Shown here: in pieces, positions 12,581-42,522 of the stretch
Layout: each line of letters opens with the position of its first letter
Position numbering within the stretch: position 1 is the stretch's first letter
Assembly: GCA_947302655.1 (NCBI GenBank)
Contig: CAMYVW010000002.1
Span: 233,537 to 297,536, forward strand
Source of the DNA: an uncultured Mycoplasmatota bacterium
Lineage (GTDB): Bacteria; Bacillota_I; Bacilli_A; RF39; UBA660
Direction of reading: 5' to 3'
Length of the DNA: 64,000 nucleotides
The notes under the pieces: model-generated
What the model was told of the DNA's origin: nothing
What the model saw: only the letters and a program-made list of their open reading frames with translations
The model's database searches: none
Translations under genes and position numbers: made by a program

Positions 12581-13075
12581 TTGATTATTGTGAAAAAGTT
12601 TCTAAAAGATATTTACCCTTATTTAATAATTGTTGCTGTTGTTGTATTAATTAGAACGTTTTTATTTACACCAATTAGAGTTAGTGGTCCATCAATGAAT
12701 CCTAATTTAAAAAATGGTGACATTATGATTTTAAATAAAACAGCAAAGATTGATAGATTTGATATTGTTGTTATCAAAAGTAAAGATGTTGATGATGTTT
12801 TAATTAAAAGAGTAATTGCACTTCCTGGTGAAACTTTTGAAGTAAAAGATGGTGATATCTATATTAATGATAAAAAGATTAATGATAAATATGGATATGG
12901 TGAAACAGCTGATTTTGTTAAACTAAAGGTACCGCAAGGTGAATACTTTGTAATGGGTGATAATAGATCAATATCTGCTGATAGTAGAATGTTTGGTACA
13001 TTTAAGAAGAAAGATATTAAAGGAACTACAAGTTTTATACTATTTCCTTTTAAAAGATTTGGTAAGGTAAAGTAG
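12581..13075 (+). CDS. lepB: Signal peptidase I.
   Basis: N-terminal TM, the SGPSMNPNL serine box and the GDNRSISADSR lysine-box region. A TTG start follows RBS AAAGGAG. Confidence 0.8.
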   Translation: MIIVKKFLKDIYPYLIIVAVVVLIRTFLFTPIRVSGPSMNPNLKNGDIMILNKTAKIDRFDIVVIKSKDVDDVLIKRVIALPGETFEVKDGDIYINDKKINDKYGYGETADFVKLKVPQGEYFVMGDNRSISADSRMFGTFKKKDIKGTTSFILFPFKRFGKVK

Positions 13076-13147
13076 ATATCATAGATGTCTACTTTTTTAC
13101 TTTGTGATATAATTATCAGGATGATTATATTGAAAGGGTGTTAATAT

Positions 13148-13903
13148 ATGCTTACAGTAAAGAATATTAAAAAGAAATTCATTAAGCTTGAAAAGAATAA
13201 CAAAAAGATCGAGATTTATGCAAATAACGGAATAAGTTTTACTGCAAATGAAGGAATGATTCTTGGTGTTTTAGGACCTAACGGGGCCGGTAAAACAACG
13301 TTACTTAGAATTGTTGCGGGAATTATTGAACCAACTGAAGGTACTGTTGATTATGATTCATTAATTTTTAAAGATAATGAGATCGAAATTAAAAGAAATT
13401 TGGCGTATTTATCGGGAAATACTAAAATATATAACACAGTATCTGCATATGAACTTCTGAAAATGTGTGCTGAAGTTTATGGAGTACAAAAGACTCAAAT
13501 TAAAAAGAGAATAGAGGAAATATCTAAAAAGTTGGAAATGGATTCGTTTTTATATAATAGAATATCATCTTTATCTACTGGTCAAACACAAAGAGTTAAT
13601 ATAGCAAGATGCTTAATTCATGATCCTAAATATTATATTTTAGATGAAGCTACTAGTGGTCTTGATATCATATCTAGTCAAATAATACTTGATTTTATTA
13701 AAGAAGAGAAAAAAAGAGGAAAAACCATTCTTTATTCAACACACTATATGGAAGAAGCTGAAAATATATGTGATTATGTTTTAATGATTAATAAAGGCGT
13801 TTTGGTAAAAGAAGGCACACCAGATAGAATTAAAAAAGATACTAAAACTACCAATTTAAGGGACGCTTTCTTTAGTATAATTGGAGGTGTTAAGAATGAA
13901 TAG
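13148..13903 (+). CDS. ABC transporter ATP-binding protein.
   Basis: Walker A GPNGAGKTT, signature LSTGQTQR and Walker B ILDEATSGLD. Confidence 0.85.
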   Translation: MLTVKNIKKKFIKLEKNNKKIEIYANNGISFTANEGMILGVLGPNGAGKTTLLRIVAGIIEPTEGTVDYDSLIFKDNEIEIKRNLAYLSGNTKIYNTVSAYELLKMCAEVYGVQKTQIKKRIEEISKKLEMDSFLYNRISSLSTGQTQRVNIARCLIHDPKYYILDEATSGLDIISSQIILDFIKEEKKRGKTILYSTHYMEEAENICDYVLMINKGVLVKEGTPDRIKKDTKTTNLRDAFFSIIGGVKNE

Positions 13904-15035
13904 TTTATTAATTATTTTAAAAAAAGAATTAAAAGATGTTTTTCGAGATAAAAAGTCTTTATCTATGATGCTTATTATTCCTTTTATGATACCTTTAATA
14001 ATCATTGGAATGTCAGCTCTATTTAATATGGAAGCTAATAAAGATATTAAAACTTATAATAAGATTGGTTTTTGTTATGAGTTAAGCGAAGCGGAATTAA
14101 ATATTGCTAAGGAACTAAATATTGAGGTTATATATAAAGATGAAAATGAACTAAAAAAAGATTACGAAGATGGTTTGATTAATTTGTACGTTACTAAAAT
14201 TGCTGATACATATATACTTAATGGAACCACAGGAGAAAACACTACTTTTGCTGTTGATTTAGTTAACAATTATTTTCATAAATATAAAGAATATTTACAA
14301 GTTAAATATTTAAATGAAAATAATATTAATGCAAATAAATTAATAAATATTATTAATGTTGAAGAAAATATAAAAGAAAAAGATAATTATTTTCAAAACT
14401 ATATTTTTACGTATGGATTCTTATTTATTATAATGGCAATAACTGTTTCTTCTACATATCCTGCAACAGATGCAACAGCTGGTGAAAAAGAAAGAGGCAC
14501 GTTGGAAACTTTAATTACTTTTCCTATTAAAAGTAAGGATATTATATTAGGTAAATTTTTAAGTGTATTTATTTCTAACTTTATTACTGGCATATTAAGT
14601 TTAATTTTTTATTATTTTTCATTAATACTATCAGGTAATATGTTTAAAATATACGAGGGAATTAATTTAGTTCTTCCGTTTAAAACATTTATGTTTATTT
14701 TTAGTGTAATAACTTTATACTCACTTCTTATTGCTGGTGTATGCATAGCTGTTGCAAGTAAATGTAAGACATTTAAAGAAGCACAAAGTGCTTTAACTCC
14801 GTTTACTTTCTTGTCTTTATTTCCTGGAATGCTTGCATTTATGATAAGCTTAAAATCTTCATTATTACTTTCTTTTGTTCCTTGTTTGAACTTTGTTTTA
14901 TTATTCCAAGATTTAATGAACGGAAGCTTAAATATCTTATATTTAATTGTTATGTTTATATCAACAATTGTGATAATAGCTGTTTTACTTGGTGTAATTA
15001 TAAAGCAGTATAAGTCAGAAAAAATTATTATTTAA
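13896..15035 (+). CDS. ABC-2 type transporter permease.
   Basis: Directly follows the ATPase and overlaps it. It is a multi-TM protein with a large first extracytoplasmic loop, typical of ABC-2 permeases. Confidence 0.7.
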   Translation: MNSLLIILKKELKDVFRDKKSLSMMLIIPFMIPLIIIGMSALFNMEANKDIKTYNKIGFCYELSEAELNIAKELNIEVIYKDENELKKDYEDGLINLYVTKIADTYILNGTTGENTTFAVDLVNNYFHKYKEYLQVKYLNENNINANKLINIINVEENIKEKDNYFQNYIFTYGFLFIIMAITVSSTYPATDATAGEKERGTLETLITFPIKSKDIILGKFLSVFISNFITGILSLIFYYFSLILSGNMFKIYEGINLVLPFKTFMFIFSVITLYSLLIAGVCIAVASKCKTFKEAQSALTPFTFLSLFPGMLAFMISLKSSLLLSFVPCLNFVLLFQDLMNGSLNILYLIVMFISTIVIIAVLLGVIIKQYKSEKIII

Positions 15036-15114
15036 TTATAATTAAAGTAAAGTATTTAACTTTACTTTTTTTATGTTATAATTTGTTTATAAAGTAGTAA
15101 GGGTAGTAGTATAA

Positions 15115-16539
15115 ATGAAAAAGAAGTATGTTTTAATTTCATTAATTAGTATTATATTAATATTAATTAGTATATCTATTTTTTACATTGTACGAATTAA
15201 TAAGGTTAAACCAACATTTGCTAGTTTAAATAAAGATTCTTCTGGCAAAGTTGATTTAGTTGTAAAACAAGATGTTTTATCACCCTATATTGATGAAGAT
15301 GTTACTTTAAAACTTGGTGATAAAACTATTGATAAATCAAAATATAAAGTTACTAAAACTGGTATAGTTGATACATCTACTTTAGGAACTTATGAAATCG
15401 AATATATAATTAAGTATTCTTATAGAACTATTAAAGTTAAAAAGACTATTGAAGTTGTTGATCAAACAGCTCCTGAACTTACTATTAATGTTGATGAAGT
15501 AGATAGAGATTTTTGTTCTAAAAAAATTAAACAAAATATCGTATATAGTGCTATTGATAATTATGATGGAGATATTACTTCTAATGTTACAGTTGAAGAA
15601 GGAGAAGATAAATTAATATATTCTATAACTGATTCAAGTGGTAATACTTCAACTAAAGAAGTAAACATTAATTATGGTAAGAAACCAGGAAATAAATTTT
15701 ATATAAATGGTGCTAATCCAATGCATGTTATTATTAATACTGAGTATCAAGAAAAAGGTGCAAGTTATACTGATGGATGTGGAAAAAATATTGGTAAAGA
15801 AATAATTACTTCAGGAACAGTAGATACAACTGTTGAAGGAACATATTATATTAATTATGATGTAGAAGGTGAAGCAACAATTACTAGAAAAGTAATTGTT
15901 GAACATTACGCACCTAAAACAATATATTTAACATTTGATGATGGACCTGGAGCAAATACAGTTAAGGTATTAAATGCTTTAGATAAGTATAATGTTAAAG
16001 CAACATTCTTTGTTACAAATCAATTTCCTCGATATCAATATTTAATTGCTGAGGAATATAATAAGGGTCATAAAATAGGAGTTCATACTTTAACTCATAA
16101 GTGGAGTGTTTATGATAGTTTAGATGCTTATTTAGATGATTTTAACCAAATGAATGAAATAGTTAAAAACCAAACTGGGTCTTATACTAATATATTTAGA
16201 TTTCCTGGTGGATCTGGTAATACTGTAAGTAGAAGTCATAAAACTGGTGTAGTTACAGAAATAGCTAATGAAATGACTAATAGAGGTTATATTTATTTTG
16301 ACTGGAATTTAAGTAGTGGTGATGCTGATGGTAAGGGAGCATCTACTGATAAAATTATAAGTAATGTAGTTAACAGAGTAGATAAGTGCTCTGCTCACTG
16401 TGTTATATTATTTCATGATTATAAACCAACTACAGCAAATGCGATAGAACCAATACTTGCAGAACTTACTAAAAGAGGTTACAATTTTGCGACACTAAAT
16501 GAAAATAGTCCAACAGTACATGCAAAGATTTTAAATTAA
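15115..16539 (+). CDS. Polysaccharide deacetylase (NodB homology domain) with N-terminal TM and Ig-like repeats.
   Basis: TFDDGPGANTVKVLNALDKYNVKATFFV and HTLTH are NodB motifs. Confidence 0.8.
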   Translation: MKKKYVLISLISIILILISISIFYIVRINKVKPTFASLNKDSSGKVDLVVKQDVLSPYIDEDVTLKLGDKTIDKSKYKVTKTGIVDTSTLGTYEIEYIIKYSYRTIKVKKTIEVVDQTAPELTINVDEVDRDFCSKKIKQNIVYSAIDNYDGDITSNVTVEEGEDKLIYSITDSSGNTSTKEVNINYGKKPGNKFYINGANPMHVIINTEYQEKGASYTDGCGKNIGKEIITSGTVDTTVEGTYYINYDVEGEATITRKVIVEHYAPKTIYLTFDDGPGANTVKVLNALDKYNVKATFFVTNQFPRYQYLIAEEYNKGHKIGVHTLTHKWSVYDSLDAYLDDFNQMNEIVKNQTGSYTNIFRFPGGSGNTVSRSHKTGVVTEIANEMTNRGYIYFDWNLSSGDADGKGASTDKIISNVVNRVDKCSAHCVILFHDYKPTTANAIEPILAELTKRGYNFATLNENSPTVHAKILN

Positions 16540-16715
16540 AAAGATATTAGATAGTATCTAATATCTTTTTCTATTGTAAACTTTATTTTTTATTCTATTG
16601 AGATTTTTTTTATTTTGTACTAGAATATCTAAGGTGCTTTAGTAATATAAAGTTTATTAGTTACATTTTAAAATTATTATGTATAAAATAATTAAAGGTG
16701 AAGGAGATAAATAGT

Positions 16716-19130
16716 ATGAGAAAAATAACTGATTTGATTGTTAAATTTAGATATGCTTTTTTAATAATTTTTATTTTACTTGCTGGTCTTTGCTTATATT
16801 TACAAACTAAAGTAAATATTAATGATGATATTATGAAATATTTACCTAAAAGTAGTGAAACAAAAATTGGTAATGACATAATGAATAAAGAATTTGATAA
16901 ATTAAGTACATCAAATTTAGATGTTATGTTTAAAGGTTTAACTAAAAAGGAAAAGGTAAAAACTTTTGAAAGATTATCTAAAGTAAAGGGTGTATCTTCT
17001 GTTAGATATGATAATACTAATGAATATAATATTGGTGATTATACTTTATATAAATTATCAGTAGATGATTATAGTGATTCTAAACTTGCTAAAAATGTAT
17101 ATGAGAGAGTTAAAGATAACTTTAAAGTTGATGCTATGAGTGGATCTATTTATGATGAAAATAAACCACTTTTACAACTTTGGATTGTTTTCTTAGCAAT
17201 AAGCTGTGCGTTAGTAATACTTATTATATTAAGCGATTCTTGGTTTGAGCCATTCTTATTTTTAATAACTATAGGTATAGCTGTATTTATTAATAAAGGT
17301 ACTAACATAATGTTTAGTAGTGTATCATCTATTACTAATGCAATAGTTGCAGTATTACAACTAGCACTTTCAATGGATTATTCAATCATGCTATCTAATA
17401 GATTTAAACAAGAAAAAGAAAAAAATAGTAATAAAATAGAAGCTATGAAAGAAGCACTTTACCAATCATTTAAAGCTATATCTAGTAGTTCATTTACAAC
17501 TATTGTTGGATTACTAGCTTTAGTATTTATGAGCTTTACTATTGGTAAAGATCTAGGATTTATTTTGGCAAAAGGAGTTTTATTAAGTTTAATAAGTATT
17601 TTCTTTTGTTTACCTGCATTACTATTATTTTTCGATACATTCTTAAAAACAACAAAGAAAAAATCATTTAAGTTTAAATTTAATAAAAAACTAAGTAAAT
17701 TTAGTTATAAAAATAAACATGCTTTAACATTTACTATAATAGGTTTATTTTTATTAGCATTCTTATTAAAGGGTAGCGTTCAAATCCTTTATACTGATAT
17801 TCAGCAAGATAAAGTGGGTCAGGTATTTGGTTCTAATAACCAAATTGCTATAGTATATGAAAATAGTTATAGTGATAAAGTTAATAATTATTTACCAAGT
17901 TTAATGGATGATGAAAATGTATCTGCAATTCTTTCTTATGATATGCTTTTGGAAAGAAAATTATCTGCTGATGAATTAACAGCTCTTGCATCTAATTTTT
18001 CATCAAGTATAGATATTGATGAGAGTTTAGTAAAACTTGTTTATTATATGAGATTTGATGGACAGATTCATGATGATTTATCTATTAGTGATCTTCTTAA
18101 AACGATTAATAGTAATGATTATTTAAGTAGTTATGTTAAAAATAATTATAGTGTAGATTTATCGGAGATTATTAATAGTTTAGATGGCGTATCTTTAAAT
18201 GATAAACTTGATGTTAAAACATTATCTAAACTTTTAAATGTAGATGAAAAAGAATTAAATTTATTATATTTATTTTATAATGCAAATGTAAATTATAATA
18301 ATGAATGGTCATTAACCGCAGAAGAAATATTCGCGTTTATTAAAGATACTGTTGCAGAAAATGATTATTTAATGAACTTTATTCCAAATGAGAAAAGATT
18401 AAGTTTACTTGTTAGTTTTAATAAAGTATCTAATATAAAAAATATCTTTGTTTCTGATAAATATAGTAGAGCCGTTTTAAATACTACTTATAAACAGGAA
18501 GGAAAAGAAACATATGAATTTGTTAAAGATATTAATAAGAAGTTAGGTAAAGAAAAAGGTATTTATATTGTAGGTGTTTCACCAATGGCATATGAGATAA
18601 ATAAAACTTTTAACTCTGAACTTAATAAGATTACTTTAATAACAATTATTTTTATCTTCATTGTAGTTGCATTTACATTTAAAGATTTAATAATTCCATT
18701 TGTTTTAGTTTTAATGATTCAGTGCGCTGTATATATTACAATGAGTTATATATCAATTACTGGTGGAAGTGTATACTTTATAGCAATATTAATTGTTCAA
18801 GCTATTTTAATGGGAGCAACAATTGATTATGCAATTGTATTTACATCTTATTATAGAGAAGGAAGACTAACTAAAAATGTTAAAGATTCAATTCTTTATG
18901 CATATAATGGTTCTATTAGAACAATCGTTAGTTCAGCATCTATATTAATAATTGTTACTTTAATTGTTTCTAATTTTGCAACTGCCATAGCCGCTAAAAT
19001 ATGTGAAACAGTTTCTCAAGGAACATTCTGTGCATTATTATTAGTTTTATTAATTCTACCAGGTGTTTTAGCTACATGTGATAAATTAATATGTAGGGGA
19101 GAAAAATATAATAATATTGATAAAAAATAA
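16716..19130 (+). CDS. MMPL/RND-superfamily membrane transporter.
   Basis: About 800 aa. It has two repeats of TM1, a large extracytoplasmic domain, then 5 TM, which is MMPL-like topology. The ATG at 16716 follows RBS AAGGAG. Confidence 0.6.
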   Translation: MRKITDLIVKFRYAFLIIFILLAGLCLYLQTKVNINDDIMKYLPKSSETKIGNDIMNKEFDKLSTSNLDVMFKGLTKKEKVKTFERLSKVKGVSSVRYDNTNEYNIGDYTLYKLSVDDYSDSKLAKNVYERVKDNFKVDAMSGSIYDENKPLLQLWIVFLAISCALVILIILSDSWFEPFLFLITIGIAVFINKGTNIMFSSVSSITNAIVAVLQLALSMDYSIMLSNRFKQEKEKNSNKIEAMKEALYQSFKAISSSSFTTIVGLLALVFMSFTIGKDLGFILAKGVLLSLISIFFCLPALLLFFDTFLKTTKKKSFKFKFNKKLSKFSYKNKHALTFTIIGLFLLAFLLKGSVQILYTDIQQDKVGQVFGSNNQIAIVYENSYSDKVNNYLPSLMDDENVSAILSYDMLLERKLSADELTALASNFSSSIDIDESLVKLVYYMRFDGQIHDDLSISDLLKTINSNDYLSSYVKNNYSVDLSEIINSLDGVSLNDKLDVKTLSKLLNVDEKELNLLYLFYNANVNYNNEWSLTAEEIFAFIKDTVAENDYLMNFIPNEKRLSLLVSFNKVSNIKNIFVSDKYSRAVLNTTYKQEGKETYEFVKDINKKLGKEKGIYIVGVSPMAYEINKTFNSELNKITLITIIFIFIVVAFTFKDLIIPFVLVLMIQCAVYITMSYISITGGSVYFIAILIVQAILMGATIDYAIVFTSYYREGRLTKNVKDSILYAYNGSIRTIVSSASILIIVTLIVSNFATAIAAKICETVSQGTFCALLLVLLILPGVLATCDKLICRGEKYNNIDKK

Positions 19131-19189
19131 TAGGATTCAAATGTATATTTGAACCTTTTTTTGTGTTATAATTTCATTAGGTGTTATAT

Positions 19190-19747
19190 ATGAGTTTAGA
19201 ACAATTATATGAGATTTTATTGTCTGATAATCCTAGTAAATTAATTAAAAAACATGAAGATAAAATATTTGATATGATTCCTGAATTAAAAGCTTGTAAA
19301 GGTTTTAATCAAAATAATATTTGGCATGTGTATGATGTTTATGAACATATTCTTCATGTTATAGATAAAGTAGATAAAGATTTACCCCTTAGACTGAGCG
19401 CACTTTTTCATGATGTTGCTAAACCCAGTGTGTATACCGAAGATTCTGATGGATTTGGGCATTTTCCTTTTCACTGGGTTGAATCAGTTAAAATATTTGA
19501 TAGATTTGTAAATAAATATAATGTAGATTCAACTCTTGCAGAGCAAACGAGAAAACTCATATTTTTTCATGATGCAAATAAGGAAAAACTTAATAGAGTT
19601 TTAGATGTTTTTGATAGTGAATCTATTAAAAAATTATTTAATTTAAAAAGATCTGACTTACTTGCACAAAATCCAAAGTTTCATTATATGATTGATACTT
19701 ATGATGATTTTGAAAAAGAAGCTTTAGATAAAATTAGAAAAAGATAA
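19190..19747 (+). CDS. HD-domain phosphohydrolase.
   Basis: H...H...LSALFHDVAKP HD motif. It is a small standalone HD protein and a paralog of the gene at 23285. Confidence 0.6.
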   Translation: MSLEQLYEILLSDNPSKLIKKHEDKIFDMIPELKACKGFNQNNIWHVYDVYEHILHVIDKVDKDLPLRLSALFHDVAKPSVYTEDSDGFGHFPFHWVESVKIFDRFVNKYNVDSTLAEQTRKLIFFHDANKEKLNRVLDVFDSESIKKLFNLKRSDLLAQNPKFHYMIDTYDDFEKEALDKIRKR

Positions 19748-19777
19748 TTATTAATAATTTATATAGAGGTGAGATAT

Positions 19778-22177
19778 ATGGAAAATAAAGAATATAAATA
19801 TGATGCATTTATTAGTTACAGACACTGTGAACGAGATAAATTTGTTGCCGAGAATTTGCATAGAATTTTAGAAAGTTATGATTTACCAAAAGGTATTAAA
19901 ACTAAACTTGGAGTAGAAGGAAAAGCTTTTAAAAGAATATTTAGAGATCAAGAAGAATTACCACTTTCAAGTAATTTAGAAGATCCTATTATTGATGCTT
20001 TAAATCAATCTAAATATTTAATTGTTATATGCTCACCTAGACTTAAAGATTCTTTATGGTGTAAAAAAGAAATTCAAACCTTTAAAAAAATTAGGGGAAG
20101 AAAAAATATTTTATGTGTTTTAGTTGAAGGGGAACCATCTGAATCTTTCCCTGAAGAAGTTTTGTATGATGAAAAAGAAGTTAAACAAAAAAATGGTAAA
20201 GTTAAAAAAGAAAAGATTCTTGTTGAACCTTTAGCAGCTGATGTAAGGGGTAATTCAAAGTCTGAAGTTTTAAAAAGAATAAAAGAAGAAAAATTAAGAC
20301 TTGTTGCATCCATGTTTAATATTGATTATGATGATCTAAGACAAAGACATAAGTTAAGAAAACAAAAAAGGATTATAGCTTTATCATCTGCTATTGCATG
20401 CTTTTGTCTTTTATTTGCTTTATATACATCTGTAATGTTTCTTAAAATAAATAAACAAAAAAATACATTAAGAGAGCATCAAGCTTTATCTTTATCAGCT
20501 AAAGCACTTGATTATTTAAGTATTGATGATAGATATGATGCTATCGAATCTTCTTATCAAGCTTTAACTAAATTTGATGGTGTAAAAATGCCTTATACTT
20601 CTGATGCTGAGTATGCTCTTGTTGAAAGTCTTGGTTTATATGATGTTGGTTCATCATATAAATCAATATCAGAAATTAAAACTAAAGGTGTTGCTGATTA
20701 TATAAAATCAACATCAGATAAAAAATATGACGCTCTTTATGATGAATCTGGAGAGTTAACTTTATTTGACACTGCAACTATGAAAGTTATAAAGATATTT
20801 AAAGTAAGTGATAAATCATTTAATGAAGAATCATTTTCATTTATAGGAAATGAAAAATTAGTTTATATAAATGATAAAAATAACCTTAATATTGTTAATG
20901 TAGAAAATGGAAAATTAATTAAAGAAATTAAAAAAGATGATAGATATTTTAATTCTGTTTTAGGTGAATCAACTGGAAAATATCTAGCTTATGATACAAA
21001 TAAAAATTTTTATTTATATGATTTAGAAAATGATAAGTTAATTACTCAATTATCTACTGATAACAAGTTTATGAAAGAATTATATTTTTCAAGTGATAGT
21101 AGTTATGTTTTTACTTCTTCGATAAAAGAAAGTCCTAGTATTAGTGAAGAAGATTATATAACAGTTCATACTATTAATATTAAAACTGGTAAAGAAGTTA
21201 GTTCTATTACTTTTGCTGCTGGTTATTTATCAGGTATAGTTACTAAAGAAAATAATGCTTATGTTCTTCTTAATGAAGCAATAGGTACTAAATTTAATAT
21301 GATAGTTGCTTCTTATAACTATACTGATGGTAAGAGTAACTGGACGAAAACATTTGATAATAATTGGGGTACATTTATTGTTCCATCTTATGATGAAAAA
21401 ATAGATCATATTGCTGTTGTTAATCATGATGCTTTTAAATTAATTAGTTCAAAAGATGGAGATGTTGTTCAGTCAACTACTGCAGCTAAAGAAATTATTG
21501 ATATATATACATCAGCAGGCAAGGAAATCTATACATTATTCTTAGCTAATGGTGATGTTAACTTTTATAATGCTGATGCAAAAGATAATATTAATTTACT
21601 TGGTAAGTTTGAATTTAATTTAGATAGATATTCTAAAGTTGCTTTAGCATCACATGGATTCTTATTAATACCGGAAAACTCTAATAGAGTGATTCTTTAT
21701 GAAGAAAAATTTAATAAAGATATTAAAAAAGAAAATATTAAAGTTGATTATGTAAATGATGATTCAATAAATATAACTAAATTTGAAGAAGTTATAAATA
21801 AATATAGTATTAAAAATAAAAGTTTAGTTGAAAAGATTTTTTATGATGATAAAAAAGAAGTTATGTTTGTTAATTATACTAATAAGGATATTTCTGTATA
21901 TGATGTAAAAACTAAAAAGCTTTTAAAAACTATTGAAAATGTTGATACAGTTTATCATTATTTTGGTAAAGATAAATTAGGTAGAACCTATCTTGGAGAT
22001 ATGTCTGATGCATATATATTTGATAAAGACTATAATAAAGTTGGTCATATTAAAAGTCTTGTAAAACTTGATAAAGATAAAGTATATATTTTATACAATA
22101 GTGAATATTATTCTTTAAAAGTTTATGATTTAGAAGATATATTAAAAGAAGCTAAAAATTATTTAAATAAAAAATAA
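19778..22177 (+). CDS. TIR-domain protein with topology N-terminal cytoplasmic TIR, single TM, large extracytoplasmic domain.
   Basis: YDAFISYRHCERDKFVAENL...FRDQEELPLSSNLEDPIIDALNQSKYLIVICSPRLKDSLWCKKEIQTF matches TIR motifs, including the conserved Glu position. A TM helix (IIALSSAIACFCLLFALYTSVMFL) lies at about aa 200-225, followed by roughly 570 aa. Confidence 0.7.
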   Translation: MENKEYKYDAFISYRHCERDKFVAENLHRILESYDLPKGIKTKLGVEGKAFKRIFRDQEELPLSSNLEDPIIDALNQSKYLIVICSPRLKDSLWCKKEIQTFKKIRGRKNILCVLVEGEPSESFPEEVLYDEKEVKQKNGKVKKEKILVEPLAADVRGNSKSEVLKRIKEEKLRLVASMFNIDYDDLRQRHKLRKQKRIIALSSAIACFCLLFALYTSVMFLKINKQKNTLREHQALSLSAKALDYLSIDDRYDAIESSYQALTKFDGVKMPYTSDAEYALVESLGLYDVGSSYKSISEIKTKGVADYIKSTSDKKYDALYDESGELTLFDTATMKVIKIFKVSDKSFNEESFSFIGNEKLVYINDKNNLNIVNVENGKLIKEIKKDDRYFNSVLGESTGKYLAYDTNKNFYLYDLENDKLITQLSTDNKFMKELYFSSDSSYVFTSSIKESPSISEEDYITVHTINIKTGKEVSSITFAAGYLSGIVTKENNAYVLLNEAIGTKFNMIVASYNYTDGKSNWTKTFDNNWGTFIVPSYDEKIDHIAVVNHDAFKLISSKDGDVVQSTTAAKEIIDIYTSAGKEIYTLFLANGDVNFYNADAKDNINLLGKFEFNLDRYSKVALASHGFLLIPENSNRVILYEEKFNKDIKKENIKVDYVNDDSINITKFEEVINKYSIKNKSLVEKIFYDDKKEVMFVNYTNKDISVYDVKTKKLLKTIENVDTVYHYFGKDKLGRTYLGDMSDAYIFDKDYNKVGHIKSLVKLDKDKVYILYNSEYYSLKVYDLEDILKEAKNYLNKK

Positions 22178-22196
22178 TTAATGAGGTGATATATAT

Positions 22197-22724
22197 ATGT
22201 TTACTCCTGAGCTTGAAACAGAAAGATTAATTCTAAGAAGATTTAATAGTTCAGATATTAATTTATTTCATGAATTAATATCTGATAAAAAAGTCAATGA
22301 ATTTAATTATTATCCCGATACATCTATAGAGTATGCATCTAAATATATAAATAACATTATCAATAATATTGATAATAATCCATATGAATCATGGGTAATT
22401 GAAATAAAGGATACACATATTCCAATTGGAAAGATAAATGTTAATAACATTTATTCTAGATTTAATTACTGTAATGTTGGTTATACTCTTAAGTATGATT
22501 ACTGGGGTAATGGATATGCTGCCGAAGCTTTAGCTAAAGTAACTGATCACCTATTAAATGATGTAAAATATCATTTGGTGGAGTGTTCTATTGATGATAG
22601 GAATGTAAGATCTATAAGAGTAGTTGAAAAAGCTGGTTTTATAAAAGATGGATATATTAATGGTAGAAGACCTAATGGTGATGGAACATATTCTGGTATA
22701 TCATATTATAGTAAATCTTTATAA
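22197..22724 (+). CDS. GNAT family N-acetyltransferase (RimJ/RimL-like).
   Basis: LILRRFNSSD... with GNAT motif A near WGNGYAAEA. Confidence 0.7.
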   Translation: MFTPELETERLILRRFNSSDINLFHELISDKKVNEFNYYPDTSIEYASKYINNIINNIDNNPYESWVIEIKDTHIPIGKINVNNIYSRFNYCNVGYTLKYDYWGNGYAAEALAKVTDHLLNDVKYHLVECSIDDRNVRSIRVVEKAGFIKDGYINGRRPNGDGTYSGISYYSKSL

Positions 22725-22766
22725 TAATATAATAATAGTCAAAGTATTGAGAATGGAGAATATAAT

Positions 22767-23213
22767 ATGGAATATTTAGTTGAAAGCCATATGGGTGGAC
22801 ATTATATAAGTAATTGTGATCCAGAAATTATTGAGGCAATTTGTGATCAGTGTGGTGATTTTGATCGTATTATTTTATCATGGGAAAATGGAGAAATGTT
22901 AGATACATTGTTAGAATACTTTTCTTATATAAAAAGGTCAGTTGAACAATTGGAAAAGGATAAAAACGAATTAGATTTAATGAAAGAAGAATTAATTGAT
23001 AGTTTAACATGGTCTTATGATGAGGATAGATACTTAATATGTGAATTATCAGAAGATGGTATAATTAGTCCTGATGAGAAGAAGACATTATTAAAACAAA
23101 TCACTTGTTCTCAAAAGAGACAATTTGAAACACTAAAAAGTATATATTATCCAAATGGATATGTAAGGGTAAAGAAGTTTAATAATAAAAACAAAAGGAA
23201 TTGCTCCAAATAA
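22767..23213 (+). CDS. Hypothetical protein.
   Basis: ORF with an RBS. No family recognised. Confidence 0.4.
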   Translation: MEYLVESHMGGHYISNCDPEIIEAICDQCGDFDRIILSWENGEMLDTLLEYFSYIKRSVEQLEKDKNELDLMKEELIDSLTWSYDEDRYLICELSEDGIISPDEKKTLLKQITCSQKRQFETLKSIYYPNGYVRVKKFNNKNKRNCSK

Positions 23214-23217
23214 ATGT

Positions 23218-23242
23218 AAATAAAACTAATATAAACTGGTTG
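23218..23242 (+). repeat. rbgA-5'-end repeat copy A (AAATAAAACTAATATAAACTGGTTG).
   Basis: The exact 23-mer is also found at 23831 and 25592 (the latter is the rbgA codon 5-12 region). Confidence 0.7.
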
Positions 23243-23284
23243 GTAATAATTTAGTTAAAACTGTGTAAACAAGAGGTAATTTAT

Positions 23285-23836
23285 ATGAACTTAAATGAAA
23301 TATTATTATCAGATAATGTAGTTGAATCCATTAATGAAAATATTGACTACTTATTACAAATAATTCCAGAAATTAAAAATATGATTGGGTTTGAACATAA
23401 ACATCCACATCATCACTTAGATGTTTGGAATCACACTTTATTAGCATTAAGTTTATCTGAAAATGATTTTGATGTAAGGTTGTGTTTATTACTTCATGAT
23501 ATAGGTAAACCTTTTTCATATCAAGATGAAGATGTGAGACATTTTAGAAATCATGCGGTAGTATCTGCTAATATGTCAAAGATAATATTAAAAAGGTTAG
23601 GATTTGATGATGACTATATAAAATATGTTTGTTATCTAATTGAACACCATGATACTCAAATTAGTAATGAACAAATCGTAAATGATTATGATTTATGTTT
23701 AAAGTTATTAAAAATACAAAAGTGCGATGCATTAGCACATCATCCTGATAAATTAGAAAAAAGAAAGAAATATATTGATGAAATATATAAAGAACTAGTA
23801 TTAAATAAAGAAGTTGACTCTCATGAATGGAAATAA
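23285..23836 (+). CDS. HD-domain phosphohydrolase.
   Basis: HKHPHHHLDVWNHT...LLLHDIGKP HD motif. It is a paralog of the gene at 19190. Confidence 0.6.
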   Translation: MNLNEILLSDNVVESINENIDYLLQIIPEIKNMIGFEHKHPHHHLDVWNHTLLALSLSENDFDVRLCLLLHDIGKPFSYQDEDVRHFRNHAVVSANMSKIILKRLGFDDDYIKYVCYLIEHHDTQISNEQIVNDYDLCLKLLKIQKCDALAHHPDKLEKRKKYIDEIYKELVLNKEVDSHEWK

Positions 23837-23905
23837 AACTAATATAAACTGGTTGATATTGATTTAGTCAAAGATTCATTCAAACTCCTATAAGATAAGG
23901 AAAAC
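23831..23905 (+). repeat. rbgA-5'-end repeat copy B with a ~50-bp extension.
   Basis: aaataaaactaatataaactggttgatattgatttagtcaaagattcattcaaactcctataagataaggaaaa is nearly identical over ~70 bp to copy C at 24849. Confidence 0.7.
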
Positions 23906-23968
23906 TAAGTGTTTAGTAATTACATTTTTTAATAAATGATATTAAAAAGAACAAAATAACTAAAATAG

Positions 23969-24673
23969 TTATTTTGTTCTTTTTCTTACGTATTCTTTTT
24001 CTAAAGCTTTACTATCTATATTGTAATTGTATATTTTATTTTTTTTGATCTCGTTTTGCAATTTGTTTTCTTCTTTTTTATCGATTGTTTTTTCGTCATC
24101 ATCTTTTTCTATATTAATATTAGTATTATTCTTTTGCTTTATTTTATCTTTAAGCTGTATAGACAAGCTTGCTACTCCAAGTGATGCCATTGAAGTTGTT
24201 AATAATATACTTAAAATAGAATTTAAGGATACATTATTTAAAAGTATGATTGATATTCCTGTTAGGGCTGTAAATAATCTGCTTATTGATAATCCTTGAA
24301 CAGTTCTTTCTTCTTTATTTTTAGTTTTAGCAAGATTAATTGCACCACCAGTTAAAAGGATGGAATTATAACCTATGATAGTTGTTGCAAATGTCGGAGA
24401 AATTTTTTTTGTAATTAATAAACCTATAAGACATAAAAAAATTCCGGTTTTATCAGTTATAGTATCCATTATTCTAAATCTTAATTTATCTTTTTCATTG
24501 TTATATTTTCTTGATATTTTTCCATCAAATATATCAGATGTCATTATAACAGTTGTTAGTAATATTTGGCTAAGTAATGTTATTGAAAGCACATTGAATG
24601 TGCTTAGGATTATTGGAATGAATGATATTATTCTTGTTGTGAGAAGAGCATATGGTATATTCTTTTTTTTCAT
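23969..24673 (-). CDS. CDP-alcohol phosphatidyltransferase family protein (divergent).
   Basis: Multi-TM protein with DIFDGKISRK...RIMDTITD resembling the D-x2-DG-x2-AR...D-x3-D motif. The start is moved to the internal ATG (MKKKNIPYAL) that follows RBS GAGGTGA. It is a minus-strand gene inside the repeat-bounded region. Confidence 0.5.
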   Translation of the reverse strand: MKKKNIPYALLTTRIISFIPIILSTFNVLSITLLSQILLTTVIMTSDIFDGKISRKYNNEKDKLRFRIMDTITDKTGIFLCLIGLLITKKISPTFATTIIGYNSILLTGGAINLAKTKNKEERTVQGLSISRLFTALTGISIILLNNVSLNSILSILLTTSMASLGVASLSIQLKDKIKQKNNTNINIEKDDDEKTIDKKEENKLQNEIKKNKIYNYNIDSKALEKEYVRKRTK

Positions 24674-24819
24674 AACCATCACCTCATATAGTTGGTTATT
24701 ATACAATACTATTTAAATTTGTACAATGTTTATTGTATTAACCATGATATCTAAAATCATAAAAAATATGATATAATTAATTAGTGAAGTTTTCTTAAAA
24801 AGAAAAGGGAGTGATTCGT

Positions 24820-24882
24820 ATGAATAGTAATGAAAAAGTTGAGCTAGACAAAACCAATATAAACTGGTTGATATTGATTTAG
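24820..24882 (+). pseudogene. Fossil rbgA 5' end (MNSNEKVELDKTNINWLILI*) with its own -10 box and RBS.
   Basis: Compare the true rbgA start MNNENKTNINWYPGHM. It is preceded by TATGATATAAT (24767-24777) and AAGGGAGTGA, and contains repeat copy C. Confidence 0.45.
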
Positions 24883-24919
24883 TCAAAGATTTATTCAAAC
24901 TCCTATAAAATAAGGAAAA
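24849..24919 (+). repeat. rbgA-5'-end repeat copy C (variant) with a ~50-bp extension.
   Basis: caaaaccaatataaactggttgatattgatttagtcaaagatttattcaaactcctataaaataaggaaaaaac is a direct repeat of copy B. Confidence 0.7.
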
Positions 24920-25055
24920 AACAAGTATATACTTGTTACACAATTTGATAAAAATATATAAAATAATGATAAAAATAACAAAAAAAGTTTTAAAAATAGC
25001 ATAGTATTTGATACTTGGTATTGACGGTTAAGCCATTAATATAAGAGGTGAAAAT

Positions 25056-25571
25056 ATGAGTGATTTATCTAAAATAATTTTAGGAACAGGTAATTATTAT
25101 CATGTAAAAAGTGGTAATACTGTATCCGTTACTGGTGATGGTGGTAATGCATGGGGATATTTTGGACCAGCATATAAAAAATTAGCTCCTAAACTAGTTA
25201 CTTATACACCTTATGCTGAAAAATTAGAAGTATTAGAAGAATTAAAAAAAGATGTCTCTAAATTAAAAGAATATATAGAATTTAGAAAACAAATAGAAGA
25301 TGAATATATAAAAAGTTATTATAATATAAGACTAAAAGATTTAGATGTTAAAGAGTTACTTTATATATTAAATGAGAAATTTGGTAATGATATAATATTA
25401 TTGTGTCATGAACCAATAGATGAATTTTGTCATAGAAGATTGATTGCAGATTATATAGAACTTGAAACAGGTATATATATACCAGAAGTAAGTGTAGATG
25501 AACAAGGTAATGTTAAAAAACTTGTTCCAATAAGATATAAAAATAGACTAAAAGAAGTAATAAAAAAGTAG
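25056..25571 (+). CDS. DUF488-like protein (C-terminal LLCHE...CHRRL motif).
   Basis: LLCHEPIDEFCHRRLIADYIE resembles the conserved C-terminal motif of DUF488. The N-terminus is divergent. Confidence 0.35.
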   Translation: MSDLSKIILGTGNYYHVKSGNTVSVTGDGGNAWGYFGPAYKKLAPKLVTYTPYAEKLEVLEELKKDVSKLKEYIEFRKQIEDEYIKSYYNIRLKDLDVKELLYILNEKFGNDIILLCHEPIDEFCHRRLIADYIELETGIYIPEVSVDEQGNVKKLVPIRYKNRLKEVIKK

Positions 25572-25580
25572 GTGATTTAC

Positions 25581-26441
25581 ATGAATAACGAAAATAAAAC
25601 TAATATAAACTGGTATCCAGGACATATGCAAAAAACTAAACGACTAATTGAAGAAATGAAAGATCAAATAGATGTTGTTATAGAGTTAATTGATGCAAGA
25701 TGCCCATACTCATCTAAAATGAGAGATATAGATAATCTAATTAAAAATAAACCTAGACTTTTGGTTTTAACAAAAAAAGATCTATGTGATATTAATGAAA
25801 CTAATAAATGGATTAAGTATTATGAAGATGAAGGTTATAATACAGCACTTATTAGTGGTATTAATGATAAGGACTATAAAGTTATTTATGAAAAACTAAG
25901 TGATATTACTTCTTCTATTCAAGAAAAAAGAATATCTAAAGGTTTAAAGATAAAAGAAATTAGATGTTTAGTTATAGGTATACCAAATGTAGGTAAATCA
26001 ACGTTAATTAATAAAATGGTTGGTAGAAAGGTAGCTAATATAGGAAATAGACCTGGAGTTACAACTTCTTTAAACTGGCTTAAAACAAATGCTGGAGTAC
26101 TACTTTTAGATTCTCCTGGTATTTTATGGCCTAAATTTGATGAAGAAGAAGTAGCTTTAAACTTAGCTGCAATATCATCAATTAGAACAGAAGTAATAGA
26201 TATTGATTCTGTTGCTGTTCATATATTAAAATTTTTAGAAAAATATTATCCAGATATTCTAGAGTCTAGATATAAAATTACAAACACAGAAGATATCTTA
26301 GAAGTATATAATAGTATAGGAAAACAAATAGGAGCATATAAAAATGGTGAAGCTGATTTTGATAGAGTTAGTAATAAAATTATTAATGATATTAAATCAG
26401 AAGCTATTAAAGGAGTAACATTTGATAGATGGAGAAAATAG
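25581..26441 (+). CDS. rbgA: Ribosome biogenesis GTPase A (YlqF/RbgA).
   Basis: MNNENKTNINWYPGHMQKT, a circularly permuted GTPase with G4 LTKKDL, G1 GIPNVGKST and G3 DSPG. It precedes rnhB as in Bacillus. Confidence 0.85.
   Translation: MNNENKTNINWYPGHMQKTKRLIEEMKDQIDVVIELIDARCPYSSKMRDIDNLIKNKPRLLVLTKKDLCDINETNKWIKYYEDEGYNTALISGINDKDYKVIYEKLSDITSSIQEKRISKGLKIKEIRCLVIGIPNVGKSTLINKMVGRKVANIGNRPGVTTSLNWLKTNAGVLLLDSPGILWPKFDEEEVALNLAAISSIRTEVIDIDSVAVHILKFLEKYYPDILESRYKITNTEDILEVYNSIGKQIGAYKNGEADFDRVSNKIINDIKSEAIKGVTFDRWRK
25592..25614 (+). repeat. rbgA-5'-end repeat copy D (the native site inside rbgA codons 5-12).
   Basis: Exact AAATAAAACTAATATAAACTGGT. Confidence 0.7.
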
Positions 26442-32268: not shown

Positions 32269-32374
32269 ATAATTATTTTTTACTTTATTTTTTTAATGTA
32301 AATATGTATATAAAAAAAACTTTTTTAATAATTACTTTTCATGCTATAATTTAAATATGAAAGTAGGATAGTAT

Positions 32375-34324: not shown

Positions 34325-34325
34325 T

Positions 34326-38677: not shown

Positions 38678-38690
38678 TATAAATAATTAA

Positions 38691-38717
38691 AGACTAGGTA
38701 AAACTAGTCTTTTTTTA
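38691..38717 (+). terminator. ppdK terminator, followed directly by the extended -10 TGaTATAAT at 38718-38726.
   Basis: AGACTAGgtaaaaCTAGTCT plus T7. This hairpin-plus-promoter module recurs at each cassette junction. Confidence 0.7.
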
Positions 38718-38743
38718 TGATATAATTTATGTAGGTGATAATT

Positions 38744-42513: not shown

Positions 42514-42522
42514 GGAGAAAAT

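What the first reader, a model, noticed from the sequence alone, without database searches (positions are those of the whole stretch)
23218..25614. Second cassette-like array, bounded by repeated copies of the rbgA 5' end, including a fossil rbgA promoter, RBS and start
The exact 23-mer AAATAAAACTAATATAAACTGGT is present in rbgA codons 5-12 (25592-25614) and recurs at 23218 and 23831. A variant with an rbgA-like start (MNSNEKVELDKTNINW..., compared with rbgA MNNENKTNINWYPGHM) occurs at 24820-24882, preceded by a promoter (TATGATATAAT) and an RBS. Copies at 23831 and 24849 share a further ~50 bp (ttgatattgatttagtcaaagatt[c/t]attcaaactcctataa[g/a]ataaggaaaa) and bracket the only minus-strand gene of the region, the CDP-alcohol phosphatidyltransferase. 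Thus three units are each bounded by the rbgA-start motif: HD phosphohydrolase; the CDP-OH phosphatidyltransferase; and the DUF488-like gene. This is the mirror image of the ppdK array, because the repeated site derives from the 5' end of the target gene, and it implies serial insertion immediately at the rbgA start.
Basis: seen in the sequence. Interest (0 to 1): 0.6.

Follow-up and report, generated by a model that had tools for sequence, protein, structure and literature searches.

The report
Mobile gene cassettes stacked at rbgA start
Three small mobile gene cassettes have inserted one after another at exactly the same spot in the first codons of the essential gene rbgA; each brings its own replacement start for that gene, and related gut bacteria show the same insertion site being used, most likely through a large serine recombinase.

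Summary
The rbgA 5' end (…AAAACTAATATAAAC-TG-GT) occurs four times (23218, 23831, 24846, 25592). Identity to rbgA stops sharply after TGGT.

Each internal copy is followed by a conserved ~125-nt "left-end module". This has a half-site GTTGATnnnnATTTAGTC, a palindrome CCTTAT-NNN-ATAAGG, and a promoter-like TTGCAA-N17-TAAAAT.

In 160 related loci from uncultured low-GC gut and rumen Bacilli, the ancestral order is lepB–rbgA. Most genomes have 1–12 unrelated genes there, 93% co-oriented with rbgA.

Two conspecific genomes (rbgA 99.8% identical) give a clean empty and occupied site. A 4,724-bp element carrying a large serine recombinase (LSR) is inserted at the TG of the Trp codon, with the same left-end module. 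It changes RbgA's N-terminus.

LSR homologs at 85, 72 and 49% identity also lie just upstream of rbgA. No tyrosine integrase recurs.

The window's newest cassette (DUF488-like) recurs as a complete unit inside another genome's array.

The window's three cassettes have no recombinase. They are either trans- or cis-mobilisable members of this family, or its relics.

The closest known cases are Tn5253 (same rbgA site, tyrosine integrase), SCC composite islands, CIMEs and Dehalococcoides ssrA islands. I class this as a new variant of a known kind.

The parts
23183..23284 (+). Junction A. It holds a decayed rbgA-5' mimic (23183-23240, ATG lost), the crossover TG at 23237-23238, and a shortened left end of cassette 1 (GTTGGTAATAATTTAGTT...) running straight into the RBS of the HD gene.
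   Evidence: D3, D8, D11. A junction profile built only from other genomes hits 23194-23262 with E=2e-12.
23239..23851 (+). Cassette 1. It holds the HD-domain gene (23285-23836) and its right-end rbgA-5' mimic (about 23796-23851, ATG at 23823).
   Evidence: Pfam HD E=2e-10. The mimic ORF reads MNGNKTNINWLILI*.
23852..23965 (+). Left-end module of cassette 2. It has the half-site GTTGATATTGATTTAGTC (23852-23869), the palindrome CCTATAAGATAAGG (23887-23900), and a promoter-like TTACAT...TATTAA.
   Evidence: E=6e-26 with the independent profile. It is conserved in 36 distinct junctions from many species.
23852..24866 (-). Cassette 2. It holds the CDP-alcohol phosphatidyltransferase gene on the minus strand (23969-24706), a terminator hairpin (23944-23984), and at its right end an outward-facing promoter-like TATGATATAAT (24767-24777), an RBS (about 24806-24814), and an rbgA-type start (ATG 24820, MNSNEKVELDKTNINW).
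   Evidence: Pfam CDP-OH_P_transf E=2.5e-11. The terminator is the only call in the region. Sequence. A similar N-terminus (MNNTNENARLDKTVINW) is the working RbgA start in L075.
24867..25055 (+). Left-end module of cassette 3. It has the same half-site and palindrome (24902-24915) as cassette 2, 96% identical over about 55 nt, followed by promoter-like sequence and an RBS.
   Evidence: D3; E=2.4e-23. It is 85-86% identical to modules in L082 and 78% to the L156 module, both flanking unrelated cargo.
24867..25612 (+). Cassette 3, the newest. It holds the DUF488-like gene (25056-25571) and the right-end mimic that now supplies the RBS (GTAGGTGA), the ATG (25581) and codons 1-11 of rbgA.
   Evidence: The whole unit 24847-25614 aligns to L161 5781-6559 at 85% and ends exactly at TGGT. 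In L161 it is internal to an array.
25581..26441 (+). rbgA (ribosome biogenesis GTPase A). The attachment site is in codons 5-12, with the crossover TG at 25611-25612 (Trp codon of INW|YPGHM). Everything 5' of the TG is element-derived.
   Evidence: Pfam MMR_HSR1. The junction profile matches rbgA genes only up to the TGGT. attB/attL/attR reconstruction is.
13076..23182 (+). Older accessory block in the same lepB-rbgA gap. It holds ABC transporter genes, a polysaccharide deacetylase, MMPL, HD, TIR-WD40, GNAT and an unknown 148-aa gene. No junctions are recognisable, so its origin by the same route is inferred only.
   Evidence: Pfam. lepB abuts rbgA in L009 and L078. No junction remnants were found at relaxed thresholds.

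Best explanation
The region is a tandem accretion of three small, recombinase-less integrative cassettes at a site-specific attachment site in the 5' end of rbgA.

**Cassette structure.** Each cassette has three parts:
- A conserved left-end module. This holds the element-side half of the att site (GTTGATnnnnATTTAGTC), a 15-bp palindrome and a promoter-like sequence.
- One cargo gene.
- A right end that mimics the rbgA 5' end (RBS, ATG and a few N-terminal codons up to ...AAC-TG).

**Integration.** Recombination at the TG of the Trp codon places the cassette between the old rbgA start and the rbgA body. The cassette's own mimic becomes the new start of this essential gene. The old start is left behind as a short dead ORF.

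Because the mimic recreates the left half of the target, the rbgA-proximal junction stays a usable target. New cassettes can therefore stack up, with the newest next to rbgA. The inferred order here is HD, then CDP-OH transferase, then DUF488-like.

**Recombinase.** It is most probably a large serine recombinase (LSR) of a clade that sits at this site in sister elements of related genomes. The window's cassettes have none. They depend on an LSR supplied in trans, or on co-excision with an LSR-bearing neighbour. Otherwise they are now immobile relics.

**Shown:** the repeats, the sharp boundary, the element-borne junctions, insertion at the TG, cassette transfer between genomes, and LSR linkage to the site.

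**Inferred:** catalysis by the LSR, the exact crossover dinucleotide, current mobility of the window's cassettes, and promoter activity.
For: **Repeats and the sharp boundary**
-.

**Hypervariable lepB-rbgA gap**
- It holds 307 ORFs, 93% co-oriented with rbgA.

**Junction structure**
- There are 36 distinct junctions. The left half is variable, the sequence ...AAC-TG- is invariant, and the right half is conserved.
- The window junction reads ATATAAAC-TG-GTTGATAT, 7 of 8 palindromic about the TG by direct reading of the junction sequences printed. A broader two-block symmetry score of 11 of 14 was reached by 224 of 20,000 shuffles.

**Empty and occupied sites in one species**
- L129 and L065 have rbgA 99.8% identical and flanks 99.8-99.9% identical.
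- The insert is 4,724 bp and the common core is AATTGGT.
- The LSR is the only recombinase recognised in the insert.

**LSRs at the site**
- LSRs lie directly upstream of rbgA in L036, L047, L049 (two), L065, L075 (two) and L148. LSR fragments occur in L053, L056, L059 and L060.
- Homologs of the L065 LSR at 85, 72 and 49% identity are again just upstream of rbgA, in three different host backgrounds.
- The LSR's nearest solved relatives are TnpX and SPbeta SprA.
- No tyrosine integrase appears among the recurrent families in 197 large array ORFs.

**Horizontal transfer**
- Array segments are 90-100% identical between genomes whose rbgA genes are about 70% identical.
- L115 and L136 are 100% identical up to ...AACTGGTATCCTGGCCACATGG, then about 75%.
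- The window's DUF488-like cassette recurs as a unit inside L161's array.

**Indirect support**
- Contig ends are about 7 times enriched at the rbgA 5' end, 28 loci against 4 at the 3' end.
- There are 81 distinct RbgA N-termini among 138 loci.
Against: - No recombinase is encoded in the window. Activity on these particular cassettes is therefore unproven.
- Canonical LSRs recombine only attP with attB and need a directionality factor for excision. How a site that is half mimic and half target behaves is unknown.
- Left-end modules follow host lineage more than cargo. This hints that homologous exchange or gene conversion also shapes the arrays.
- Some arrays or LSR units are not next to rbgA (L161; L173 and L174).
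- In streptococci the same rbgA position is used by tyrosine integrases (PMC8571831, PMC4701971). Singleton tyrosine integrases in the arrays cannot be excluded with the batch scans used.
- The 10 kb upstream of junction A shows no junctions.
Confidence: 0.72

Rival explanations
1. The same architecture arises, but through a Tn5252/Tn5253-type tyrosine integrase. The conserved 125-nt left end would then be an arm region with accessory-protein sites, and the LSRs nearby would be unrelated cargo or separate elements.
For: Tn5253 integrates after nt 20 of rbgA and restores the CDS with an 84-bp attTn at its right end. Streptococcal ICEs at the rbgA 5' end encode tyrosine integrases. The 7-bp common core AATTGGT would also suit a tyrosine recombinase overlap. 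The left-end conservation extends well beyond a 25-bp half-site.
Against: No Phage_integrase family appears among the recurrent families in 130 + 67 large array ORFs. The 4.7-kb polymorphic insert in L065 holds an LSR and no recognisable tyrosine integrase. The LSR clade is repeatedly adjacent to rbgA. The dyad arms ATCAA/TTGAT are separated by only 4 bp around the TG, which is too short for a typical 6-8 bp tyrosine-recombinase overlap. That last point is my inference from general knowledge of those enzymes.
Confidence: 0.07
2. The recombinase-less single-gene cassettes are not moved by a site-specific enzyme. They are exchanged by homologous recombination after DNA uptake, using the conserved junctions (mimic plus left-end module, about 180-250 bp on each side) as portable homology arms. 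Site-specific integration founded the arrays only.
For: Junction modules are 75-96% identical between cassettes and genomes. Module type follows the host lineage rather than the cargo. Strains with identical rbgA share the proximal cassette but differ further upstream. DUF488-like homologs also sit in compact arrays without junctions.
Against: Cassette ends coincide exactly with the TG junction in independent genomes. Homology arms of 50-200 bp at about 80% identity are poor RecA substrates (general knowledge). This does not explain why left halves of junctions are so varied while the breakpoint is fixed.
Confidence: 0.15
3. The window's three cassettes are inert relics. They are deletion derivatives of once complete LSR elements that lost their recombinase, and are no longer mobile by any route.
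For: No LSR is in the window. LSR fragments are seen in other arrays. Junction A is decayed, with its ATG lost and its module truncated.
Against: Junctions B and C are intact and score as highly as any. Single-gene cassettes with intact modules and no LSR debris are the norm in L082, L159 and L161. The DUF488-like cassette is shared as a precise unit with a distant genome.
Confidence: 0.25
4. Local duplication or gene conversion of the rbgA 5' end, with no mobile DNA involved.
For: The copies are direct repeats close to the source gene.
Against: The sequence right of each copy is a conserved module absent from empty sites and shared across species. Cargo differs completely between close relatives. 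Cassettes are shared between genomes with divergent rbgA.
Confidence: 0.01

Closest known systems
Tn5253 / Tn5252-type ICEs integrating in the 5' end of rbgA (Streptococcus, Enterococcus)
   Same: The target gene is the same, and within 1-2 nt so is the position. Tn5253 inserts after nt 20 of the CDS, just past the Trp codon of IQW|FPGHM; here the site is at or just after the TG of INW|YPGHM. The element's right end carries a copy of the rbgA upstream region plus first codons that restores the essential gene. The N-terminus or upstream region may be altered (PMC8571831, PMC4701971).
   Different: Those are large conjugative elements with a tyrosine integrase and excisionase. Here the units are 0.6-5 kb with no conjugation genes. 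The linked recombinase is a large serine recombinase, and up to six or more units are stacked. The positional equivalence rests on my recollection of the streptococcal N-terminus (MATIQWFPGHM) plus the paper's 'nt 20'.
SCC elements and SCC composite islands at rlmH (orfX) in staphylococci
   Same: Large serine recombinases (CcrAB/CcrC) insert elements at the end of a conserved housekeeping gene. The site is regenerated, so elements stack in tandem, separated by direct repeats. Recombinase-less 'pseudo-SCC' units sit in the same arrays (e.g. 10.1101/336396 and PMC7029136, listed; the rest is general knowledge). LSR pairs also occur here (L049, L075).
   Different: SCC targets the 3' end. Here the 5' end is targeted, so each unit must supply an RBS, a start codon and N-terminal codons, and sometimes a promoter, for an essential gene. 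The units here are mostly single genes with a standard 125-nt left-end module.
CIMEs (cis-mobilisable elements) and accretion-mobilisation of ICEs/IMEs
   Same: Units flanked by att sites but lacking their own recombination genes sit in tandem with integrase-bearing relatives. The concept of co-excision from an outer att site applies (PMC5704250, listed; general knowledge).
   Different: CIMEs are usually seen as one or two decayed elements with tyrosine integrases. They are not arrays of many single-gene units with uniform ends.
Dehalococcoides ssrA-specific genomic islands
   Same: Serine-recombinase islands are inserted in tandem at one conserved gene end, each leaving a direct repeat of the target (PMC3146451, listed).
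   Different: The target is the tmRNA 3' end. The islands are multi-gene (10-30 kb), and each typically keeps its own recombinase.
Integrons (and sedentary chromosomal integrons)
   Same: Arrays of co-oriented, mostly single-gene cassettes with very diverse small-enzyme or defence-type cargo. The newest cassette sits next to the insertion point. The cassettes themselves lack a recombinase.
   Different: There is no IntI tyrosine integrase, no attI, and no attC hairpins. Cassettes carry their own promoter-like module. The recombination site is a mimic of a housekeeping gene end.

Membership tests
Large-serine-recombinase integrative element | Encodes a large serine recombinase (Resolvase + Recombinase + Zn-ribbon domains) | tested here: not met
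   The window has none between lepB and rbgA or in the ppdK array (tblastn). Sister elements at the same site do: L036, L047, L049, L065, L075, L148, L170, L175 and L179.
Large-serine-recombinase integrative element | Discrete insertion with reconstructible attB, attL and attR and a short common core | tested here: met
   L129 (empty) against L065 (occupied) gives a 4,724-bp insert with core AATTGGT and flanks 99.8-99.9% identical. The window junctions have the same attL-type structure.
Large-serine-recombinase integrative element | att site with imperfect dyad symmetry centred on a non-palindromic crossover dinucleotide | tested here: inconclusive
   ATATAAAC-TG-GTTGATAT (window) and AATCAAT-TG-GTTGATAT (L065 attP) are symmetric about the TG. 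The symmetry score was reached by 224 of 20,000 shuffles. The exact crossover dinucleotide cannot be fixed from sequence alone.
Large-serine-recombinase integrative element | The recombinase catalyses attP x attB recombination | not testable with these tools
   This needs an in vivo or in vitro recombination assay.
Integron | IntI-type tyrosine integrase next to attI with a Pc promoter | tested here: not met
   No tyrosine integrase is in the window region or among the recurrent array families.
Integron | Cassettes end in attC sites that fold as imperfect hairpins | tested here: not met
   Junctions are rbgA-5' mimics plus a module. Alifold predicts no consensus structure, and the only palindrome has invariant arms. 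Rfam gives no match.
Tn5252/Tn5253-type ICE | Integration in the rbgA 5' end with restoration of the CDS by the element's right end | tested here: met
   compared with PMC8571831.
Tn5252/Tn5253-type ICE | Tyrosine integrase/excisionase and a conjugation module | tested here: not met
   None in the window or in the LSR-bearing units examined.
CIME / pseudo-SCC-like recombinase-less unit | Flanked by att sites of a site-specific element family, with no recombination genes of its own | tested here: met
   Window cassettes 1-3 are bounded by junctions A, B, C and rbgA and carry one cargo gene each.
CIME / pseudo-SCC-like recombinase-less unit | Mobilised in cis or trans by the recombinase of a related element | not testable with these tools
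   There is only indirect support. The DUF488-like cassette is shared as a precise unit between distant genomes, and there is strain-level turnover.

The most novel reading that the evidence does not exclude
These arrays are a working cassette-capture system of uncultured low-GC gut Bacilli, analogous to an integron but built on large serine recombinases.

- Standardised single-gene cassettes (left-end module with its own promoter and operator-like palindrome, then cargo, then a mimic of a housekeeping-gene terminus) are individually excised and inserted in trans.
- Several such platforms exist per genome. In this window they are the rbgA 5' end and the ppdK 3' end.
- They draw on a shared pool of small nucleotide- and NAD-metabolising, immunity or defence genes.
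- Every insertion rewrites the N-terminus and expression signals of an essential gene.
Probability: 0.3. Interest if true: 0.8.

Novelty: new variant of a known kind. Interest (0 to 1): 0.6.

Why it matters
It shows that the boundary between RbgA's dispensable N-terminus and its conserved core is a recurrent landing pad for mobile DNA. The site is used in streptococci by tyrosine integrases, and here apparently by an unrelated serine recombinase clade. If the attribution holds, that is convergent targeting.

It explains several features of these uncultured gut and rumen Bacilli:
- why RbgA's N-terminus is hypervariable (81 variants in 138 loci);
- why short-read assemblies break at rbgA;
- where much of their strain-specific accessory gene content (NUDIX, GNAT, HD, NADAR, TIR, reverse transcriptases, RhuM and others) is stored.

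The LSR and att pairs found here are also candidate genome-engineering tools with a defined, short target. If the cassettes prove individually mobile, this would be an integron-like gene-capture system in Firmicutes-type bacteria, where integrons are essentially absent.

Tried and rejected
- Exact-sequence look-ups of the window's RbgA, with either start, found nothing on record. The source genome itself could not be examined for an LSR.
- The Rfam scan of 22500-26000 gave only one sub-threshold chance hit (STnc350, 22 bits against 60). The left-end module is not a known RNA.
- I considered the module palindrome as an RNA hairpin or terminator and rejected it. The arms are invariant, the 3-nt centre flips between AAA and TTT, alifold finds no structure, and there is no T-tract on either strand.
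- The consensus promoter/terminator scan is uninformative for promoters in this AT-rich DNA.
- I considered that the distal half-site motif (ACTAAT against ACTAAAT) is displaced by 5 bp, as in attB against attP half-sites of serine integrases. The profile comparison supports an unshifted and a 5-bp-shifted register about equally, so I make no claim.
- I searched for decayed junctions in the older 10 kb (13000-23190) with a relaxed profile search. Nothing scored above noise.
- tblastn of seven LSRs against the window found no gene or remnant.
- I looked for the window's cargo genes in the 160 rbgA loci. Only HD1 has relatives there (L128, L129, L131).
- The Xer/dif idea came from resemblance of TAATATAAACT to the Firmicute XerD arm, recalled from memory. 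I dropped it because the breakpoint lies to the right of that motif, and LSRs, not Xer, are linked to the site.

Full report
**1. Observation**

The 23-mer AAATAAAACTAATATAAACTGGT lies in rbgA codons 5-12 (25592-25614). It recurs exactly at 23218 and 23831, and with three mismatches at 24846. None is expected by chance.

The copies at 23835 and 24850 share a further stretch, 96% identical over 70 nt. The copy at 23222 is a more diverged relative, 61%.

Translation gives MNGNKTNINWLILI* (23823-23867) and MNSNEKVELDKTNINWLILI* (24820-24882), against RbgA's MNNENKTNINWYPGHM. The leftmost copy has lost its ATG.

The genes between the copies are an HD-domain protein, a minus-strand CDP-alcohol phosphatidyltransferase, and a DUF488-like protein. 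The window is 26% G+C.

The gene order is rplS, lepB, ten kb of accessory genes (ABC transporter, polysaccharide deacetylase, MMPL, HD, TIR-WD40, GNAT, unknown), the three units, rbgA, rnhB, an LtaS-like sulfatase, and topA. No recombinase is encoded anywhere in this stretch.

**2. The phenomenon is lineage-wide**

RbgA relatives were retrieved from 80 genome loci and 80 metagenome loci. All come from uncultured gut or rumen bacteria, labelled variously as Bacilli, Tenericutes, Erysipelotrichaceae or Firmicutes CAG. I think this is GTDB order RF39, but that is from memory and was not tested.

The ancestral arrangement is rplS-lepB-rbgA-rnhB. L009 and L078 have lepB directly next to rbgA. Nearly all other species have 1-12 unrelated genes in the gap. 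These amount to 307 ORFs, 93% on the rbgA strand.

Many genomes carry upstream copies of their own rbgA 5' end.

A profile of the junction matches real rbgA genes only up to the TGGT. It matches internal junctions for a further ~125 nt. A profile built without any window sequence finds exactly the three window junctions (E = 6e-26, 2e-23, 2e-12) and nothing else in the window.

Contigs end within 200 nt upstream of rbgA in 28 of 160 loci, with 7 more ending inside the gene. At the 3' side the figures are 4 and 3. That is the signature of a repeat that breaks assemblies.

**3. Anatomy of a junction**

There are 36 distinct junctions.

- The left half varies. Several unrelated rbgA 5' versions occur, such as ...AAAACTAATATAAAC, ...TCGGTCGGAATTAAC and ...CTACGAGTATCAAC. 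All end in A(A/T)(C/T)-TG.
- The base after the TG varies (G, C or A).
- A conserved right half follows: GTTGATnnnnATTTAGTC, then a palindrome CCTTAT-(AAA or TTT)-ATAAGG at about +40, then TTGCAA-N17-TAAAAT-like sequence at about +80 to +115.

The palindrome's arms are invariant and no RNA structure is predicted, so I read it as a protein-binding site.

Around the TG the site is an imperfect inverted repeat, ATATAAAC-TG-GTTGATAT in the window. The symmetry score was reached by 224 of 20,000 shuffles. This is suggestive, not conclusive.

**4. The junctions are made by insertion of discrete elements**

L129 (also L128 and L131) and L065 have rbgA genes 99.8% identical.

- In L129, the 892 bp upstream of rbgA are contiguous with the gene.
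- In L065, they lie 4,724 bp further away.

The aligned sites are as follows:

- attB: ...AAAACCAATATAAAT-TG-GTATCCAGG
- attL: the same left half joined to GTTGATATTGTTTTATTCAACC... and the left-end module
- attR: ...TTTTCTAATACGGTAATCAAT-TG-GTATCCAGG

The common core is AATTGGT, and the flanks are 99.8-99.9% identical. The insertion changes RbgA from MNDNKTNINW... to MNESDKKVFSNTVINW....

The insert encodes a Zn-ribbon protein, two unknowns and a large serine recombinase. The inferred attP, AATCAAT-TG-GTTGATAT, is symmetric about the TG.

**5. Link to the serine recombinase**

LSRs with Resolvase, Recombinase and Zn_ribbon_recom domains lie on the rbgA strand just upstream of rbgA in L036, L047, L049 (a pair), L065, L075 (a pair) and L148. 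LSR fragments lie in L053, L056, L059 and L060.

L047 and L148 are minimal units of 3.9 and 2.7 kb, bounded by an attL-type junction and rbgA.

In batch Pfam scans of 130 and 67 large array ORFs, LSR domains were the only recurrent recombinase family in the first set. The second set showed no recurrent recombinase family at all, its single LSR (L148) being known from tblastn. RhuM, Bro-N, KilA-N and YhcG are also frequent in these scans. Singleton tyrosine integrases cannot be excluded by this method.

Homologs of the L065 LSR at 85%, 72% and 49% identity, looked up independently, are again immediately upstream of rbgA. They are directly adjacent, or have one 98-aa or ~524-aa gene in between. 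The host backgrounds differ downstream of rbgA. One relative at 73% is not followed by rbgA.

The nearest solved relatives are TnpX and SPbeta SprA.

**6. Cassettes move between genomes**

Array segments are 90-100% identical between genomes whose rbgA genes are about 70% identical, and they occupy different positions in the arrays. L115 and L136 are 100% identical through ...AACTGGTATCCTGGCCACATGG and about 75% after it.

L082 is a close relative of the window (RbgA 87%). It has five junction modules that separate GNAT | NUDIX | NADAR + unknown | unknown | WDGH | unknown | rbgA. No cargo is shared with the window, but the modules are about 85% identical.

The window's DUF488-like protein has 967 homologs. 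In L161, the whole unit (window 24847-25614: module, cargo and mimic) is present at 85% identity and ends exactly at TGGT. There it is followed by another cassette's left end, so it is internal to an array of six or more junctions. The present start of the window's rbgA therefore belongs to that cassette.

Homologs also occur inside compact arrays that lack junctions.

**7. Mechanism proposed**

The mechanism is a Campbell-type site-specific insertion of a circular element. Its attP consists of its right-end rbgA mimic and its left-end half-site, with the crossover at or just left of the TG of the Trp codon.

Because the mimic resembles the target's left half, the rbgA-proximal junction remains target-like. 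Elements therefore accumulate, with the newest nearest rbgA.

The minus-strand cassette carries an outward promoter-like element, an RBS and a start. It would have needed these to keep rbgA expressed when it was the proximal unit. The DUF488-like gene's stop codon overlaps the rbgA RBS, which implies co-transcription.

All expression statements are inferred from sequence.

Recombinase-less cassettes could move in three ways:

- with an LSR supplied in trans;
- by co-excision with an LSR-bearing neighbour from an outer junction, as for CIMEs and pseudo-SCC units;
- by homologous exchange through the conserved junctions.

**8. Unresolved points**

- Module type follows the host lineage more than the cargo. 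The window's cassettes 2 and 3 have modules 96% identical. The orthologous DUF488-like cassette in L161 has a module only 60-82% identical, against about 92% for its cargo.
- Strains with identical rbgA share the proximal cassette but differ upstream.
- L161's array, and the LSR units in L173 and L174, are not next to rbgA.
- The older 10 kb of the window's island has no junctions.

**9. Comparison with what is known**

- **Tn5253 and related streptococcal ICEs.** They use essentially the same position in rbgA and restore the gene in the same way, but with tyrosine integrases and as large conjugative elements.
- **SCC composite islands, CIMEs and Dehalococcoides ssrA islands.** They show the same logic of tandem accretion.
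- **Integrons.** They share the array-of-single-gene-cassettes look but none of the defining parts.

I found no description of these arrays in the searched literature.

**Verdict**

It is a new variant of a known kind of system. It has a credible but unproven integron-like reading that would be considerably more interesting.

Noticed in passing
window 38647-48607 (ppdK 36047-38677 and downstream): This is a mirror-image array. The ppdK 3' end (ACAAGCTGCAATTAAAGCAAAGAAGAA + stop + terminator hairpin) recurs at 43680, 44327, 45323, 48068 and 48563. Each copy is preceded by a conserved cassette right-end (...AACTTGCCTATAGT|ACAAGC...), giving a sharp boundary with a different att sequence from rbgA's. 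Cargo includes a nucleoside deoxyribosyltransferase-like protein, histidine phosphatases, Imm33, NUDIX, GNAT-YoaP and an RsgI-like protein. No recombinase is present.
   Followed up: partly
window 48613-48672 and 51167-51226: An 88%-identical terminator-hairpin + TATG(A/T)TATAAT + RBS module is repeated 2.5 kb apart, beyond the last ppdK-end copy. This may mark further cassette boundaries of another type (D9).
   Followed up: no
window 38735-39277, 44481-45224, 49195-50085 vs L040, L060, L062: Three genes of the window's ppdK array (deoxyribosyltransferase-like, GNAT-YoaP, radical SAM) have homologs inside rbgA arrays of other species. Arrays at different target genes therefore draw on a shared cargo pool.
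   Followed up: partly
RbgA N-termini in 138 loci (e.g. L041, L105, L115): Many real rbgA genes begin with a long basic extension, MDMYQKRK(I/M)R(A/Q)EKKNN...(I/V)(N/S)W, of about 30 residues before the conserved WYPGHM. This extension too is duplicated at junctions (L041, L042). Whether it affects RbgA function is unknown.
   Followed up: no
L161 11149-11800: An array of six or more rbgA-type junctions ends with a junction and an 'empty' left-end module. A T-box-like leader and a tRNA synthetase gene follow, instead of rbgA.
   Followed up: no
L173/L174 5001-8001: An LSR 73% identical to the L065 LSR, with its 98-aa companion gene, is followed by a minus-strand HTH_38 gene (possibly an IS30-type transposase) and cell-wall genes, not by rbgA. 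This may be a rearrangement or a secondary site.
   Followed up: no
LSR-bearing units L036, L170-L180: Cargo of the LSR-bearing units looks like anti-phage defence. It includes AAA_21 + OLD-TOPRIM, a 647-aa SMC_N/AAA_13 protein, RVT_1 reverse transcriptases (494-510 aa), and HEPN + pP_pnuc_1. RhuM is the most common array protein and often lies directly next to rbgA.
   Followed up: no
window 19769-22177 and 19181-19747 / 23285-23836: An 802-aa TIR + WD40/beta-propeller protein sits in the older part of the island, and a 70%-nt-identical homolog heads the array in L162. Two HD-domain paralogs (HD1, HD2) lie 4 kb apart. HD1 has 52-53% identical relatives in the arrays of L128, L129 and L131.
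   Followed up: partly
window 31282-35555: Three consecutive large ORFs after topA (328, 649 and 413 aa) have no significant Pfam match. The only hit is a sub-threshold CBM_X2 match at E=0.008.
   Followed up: no
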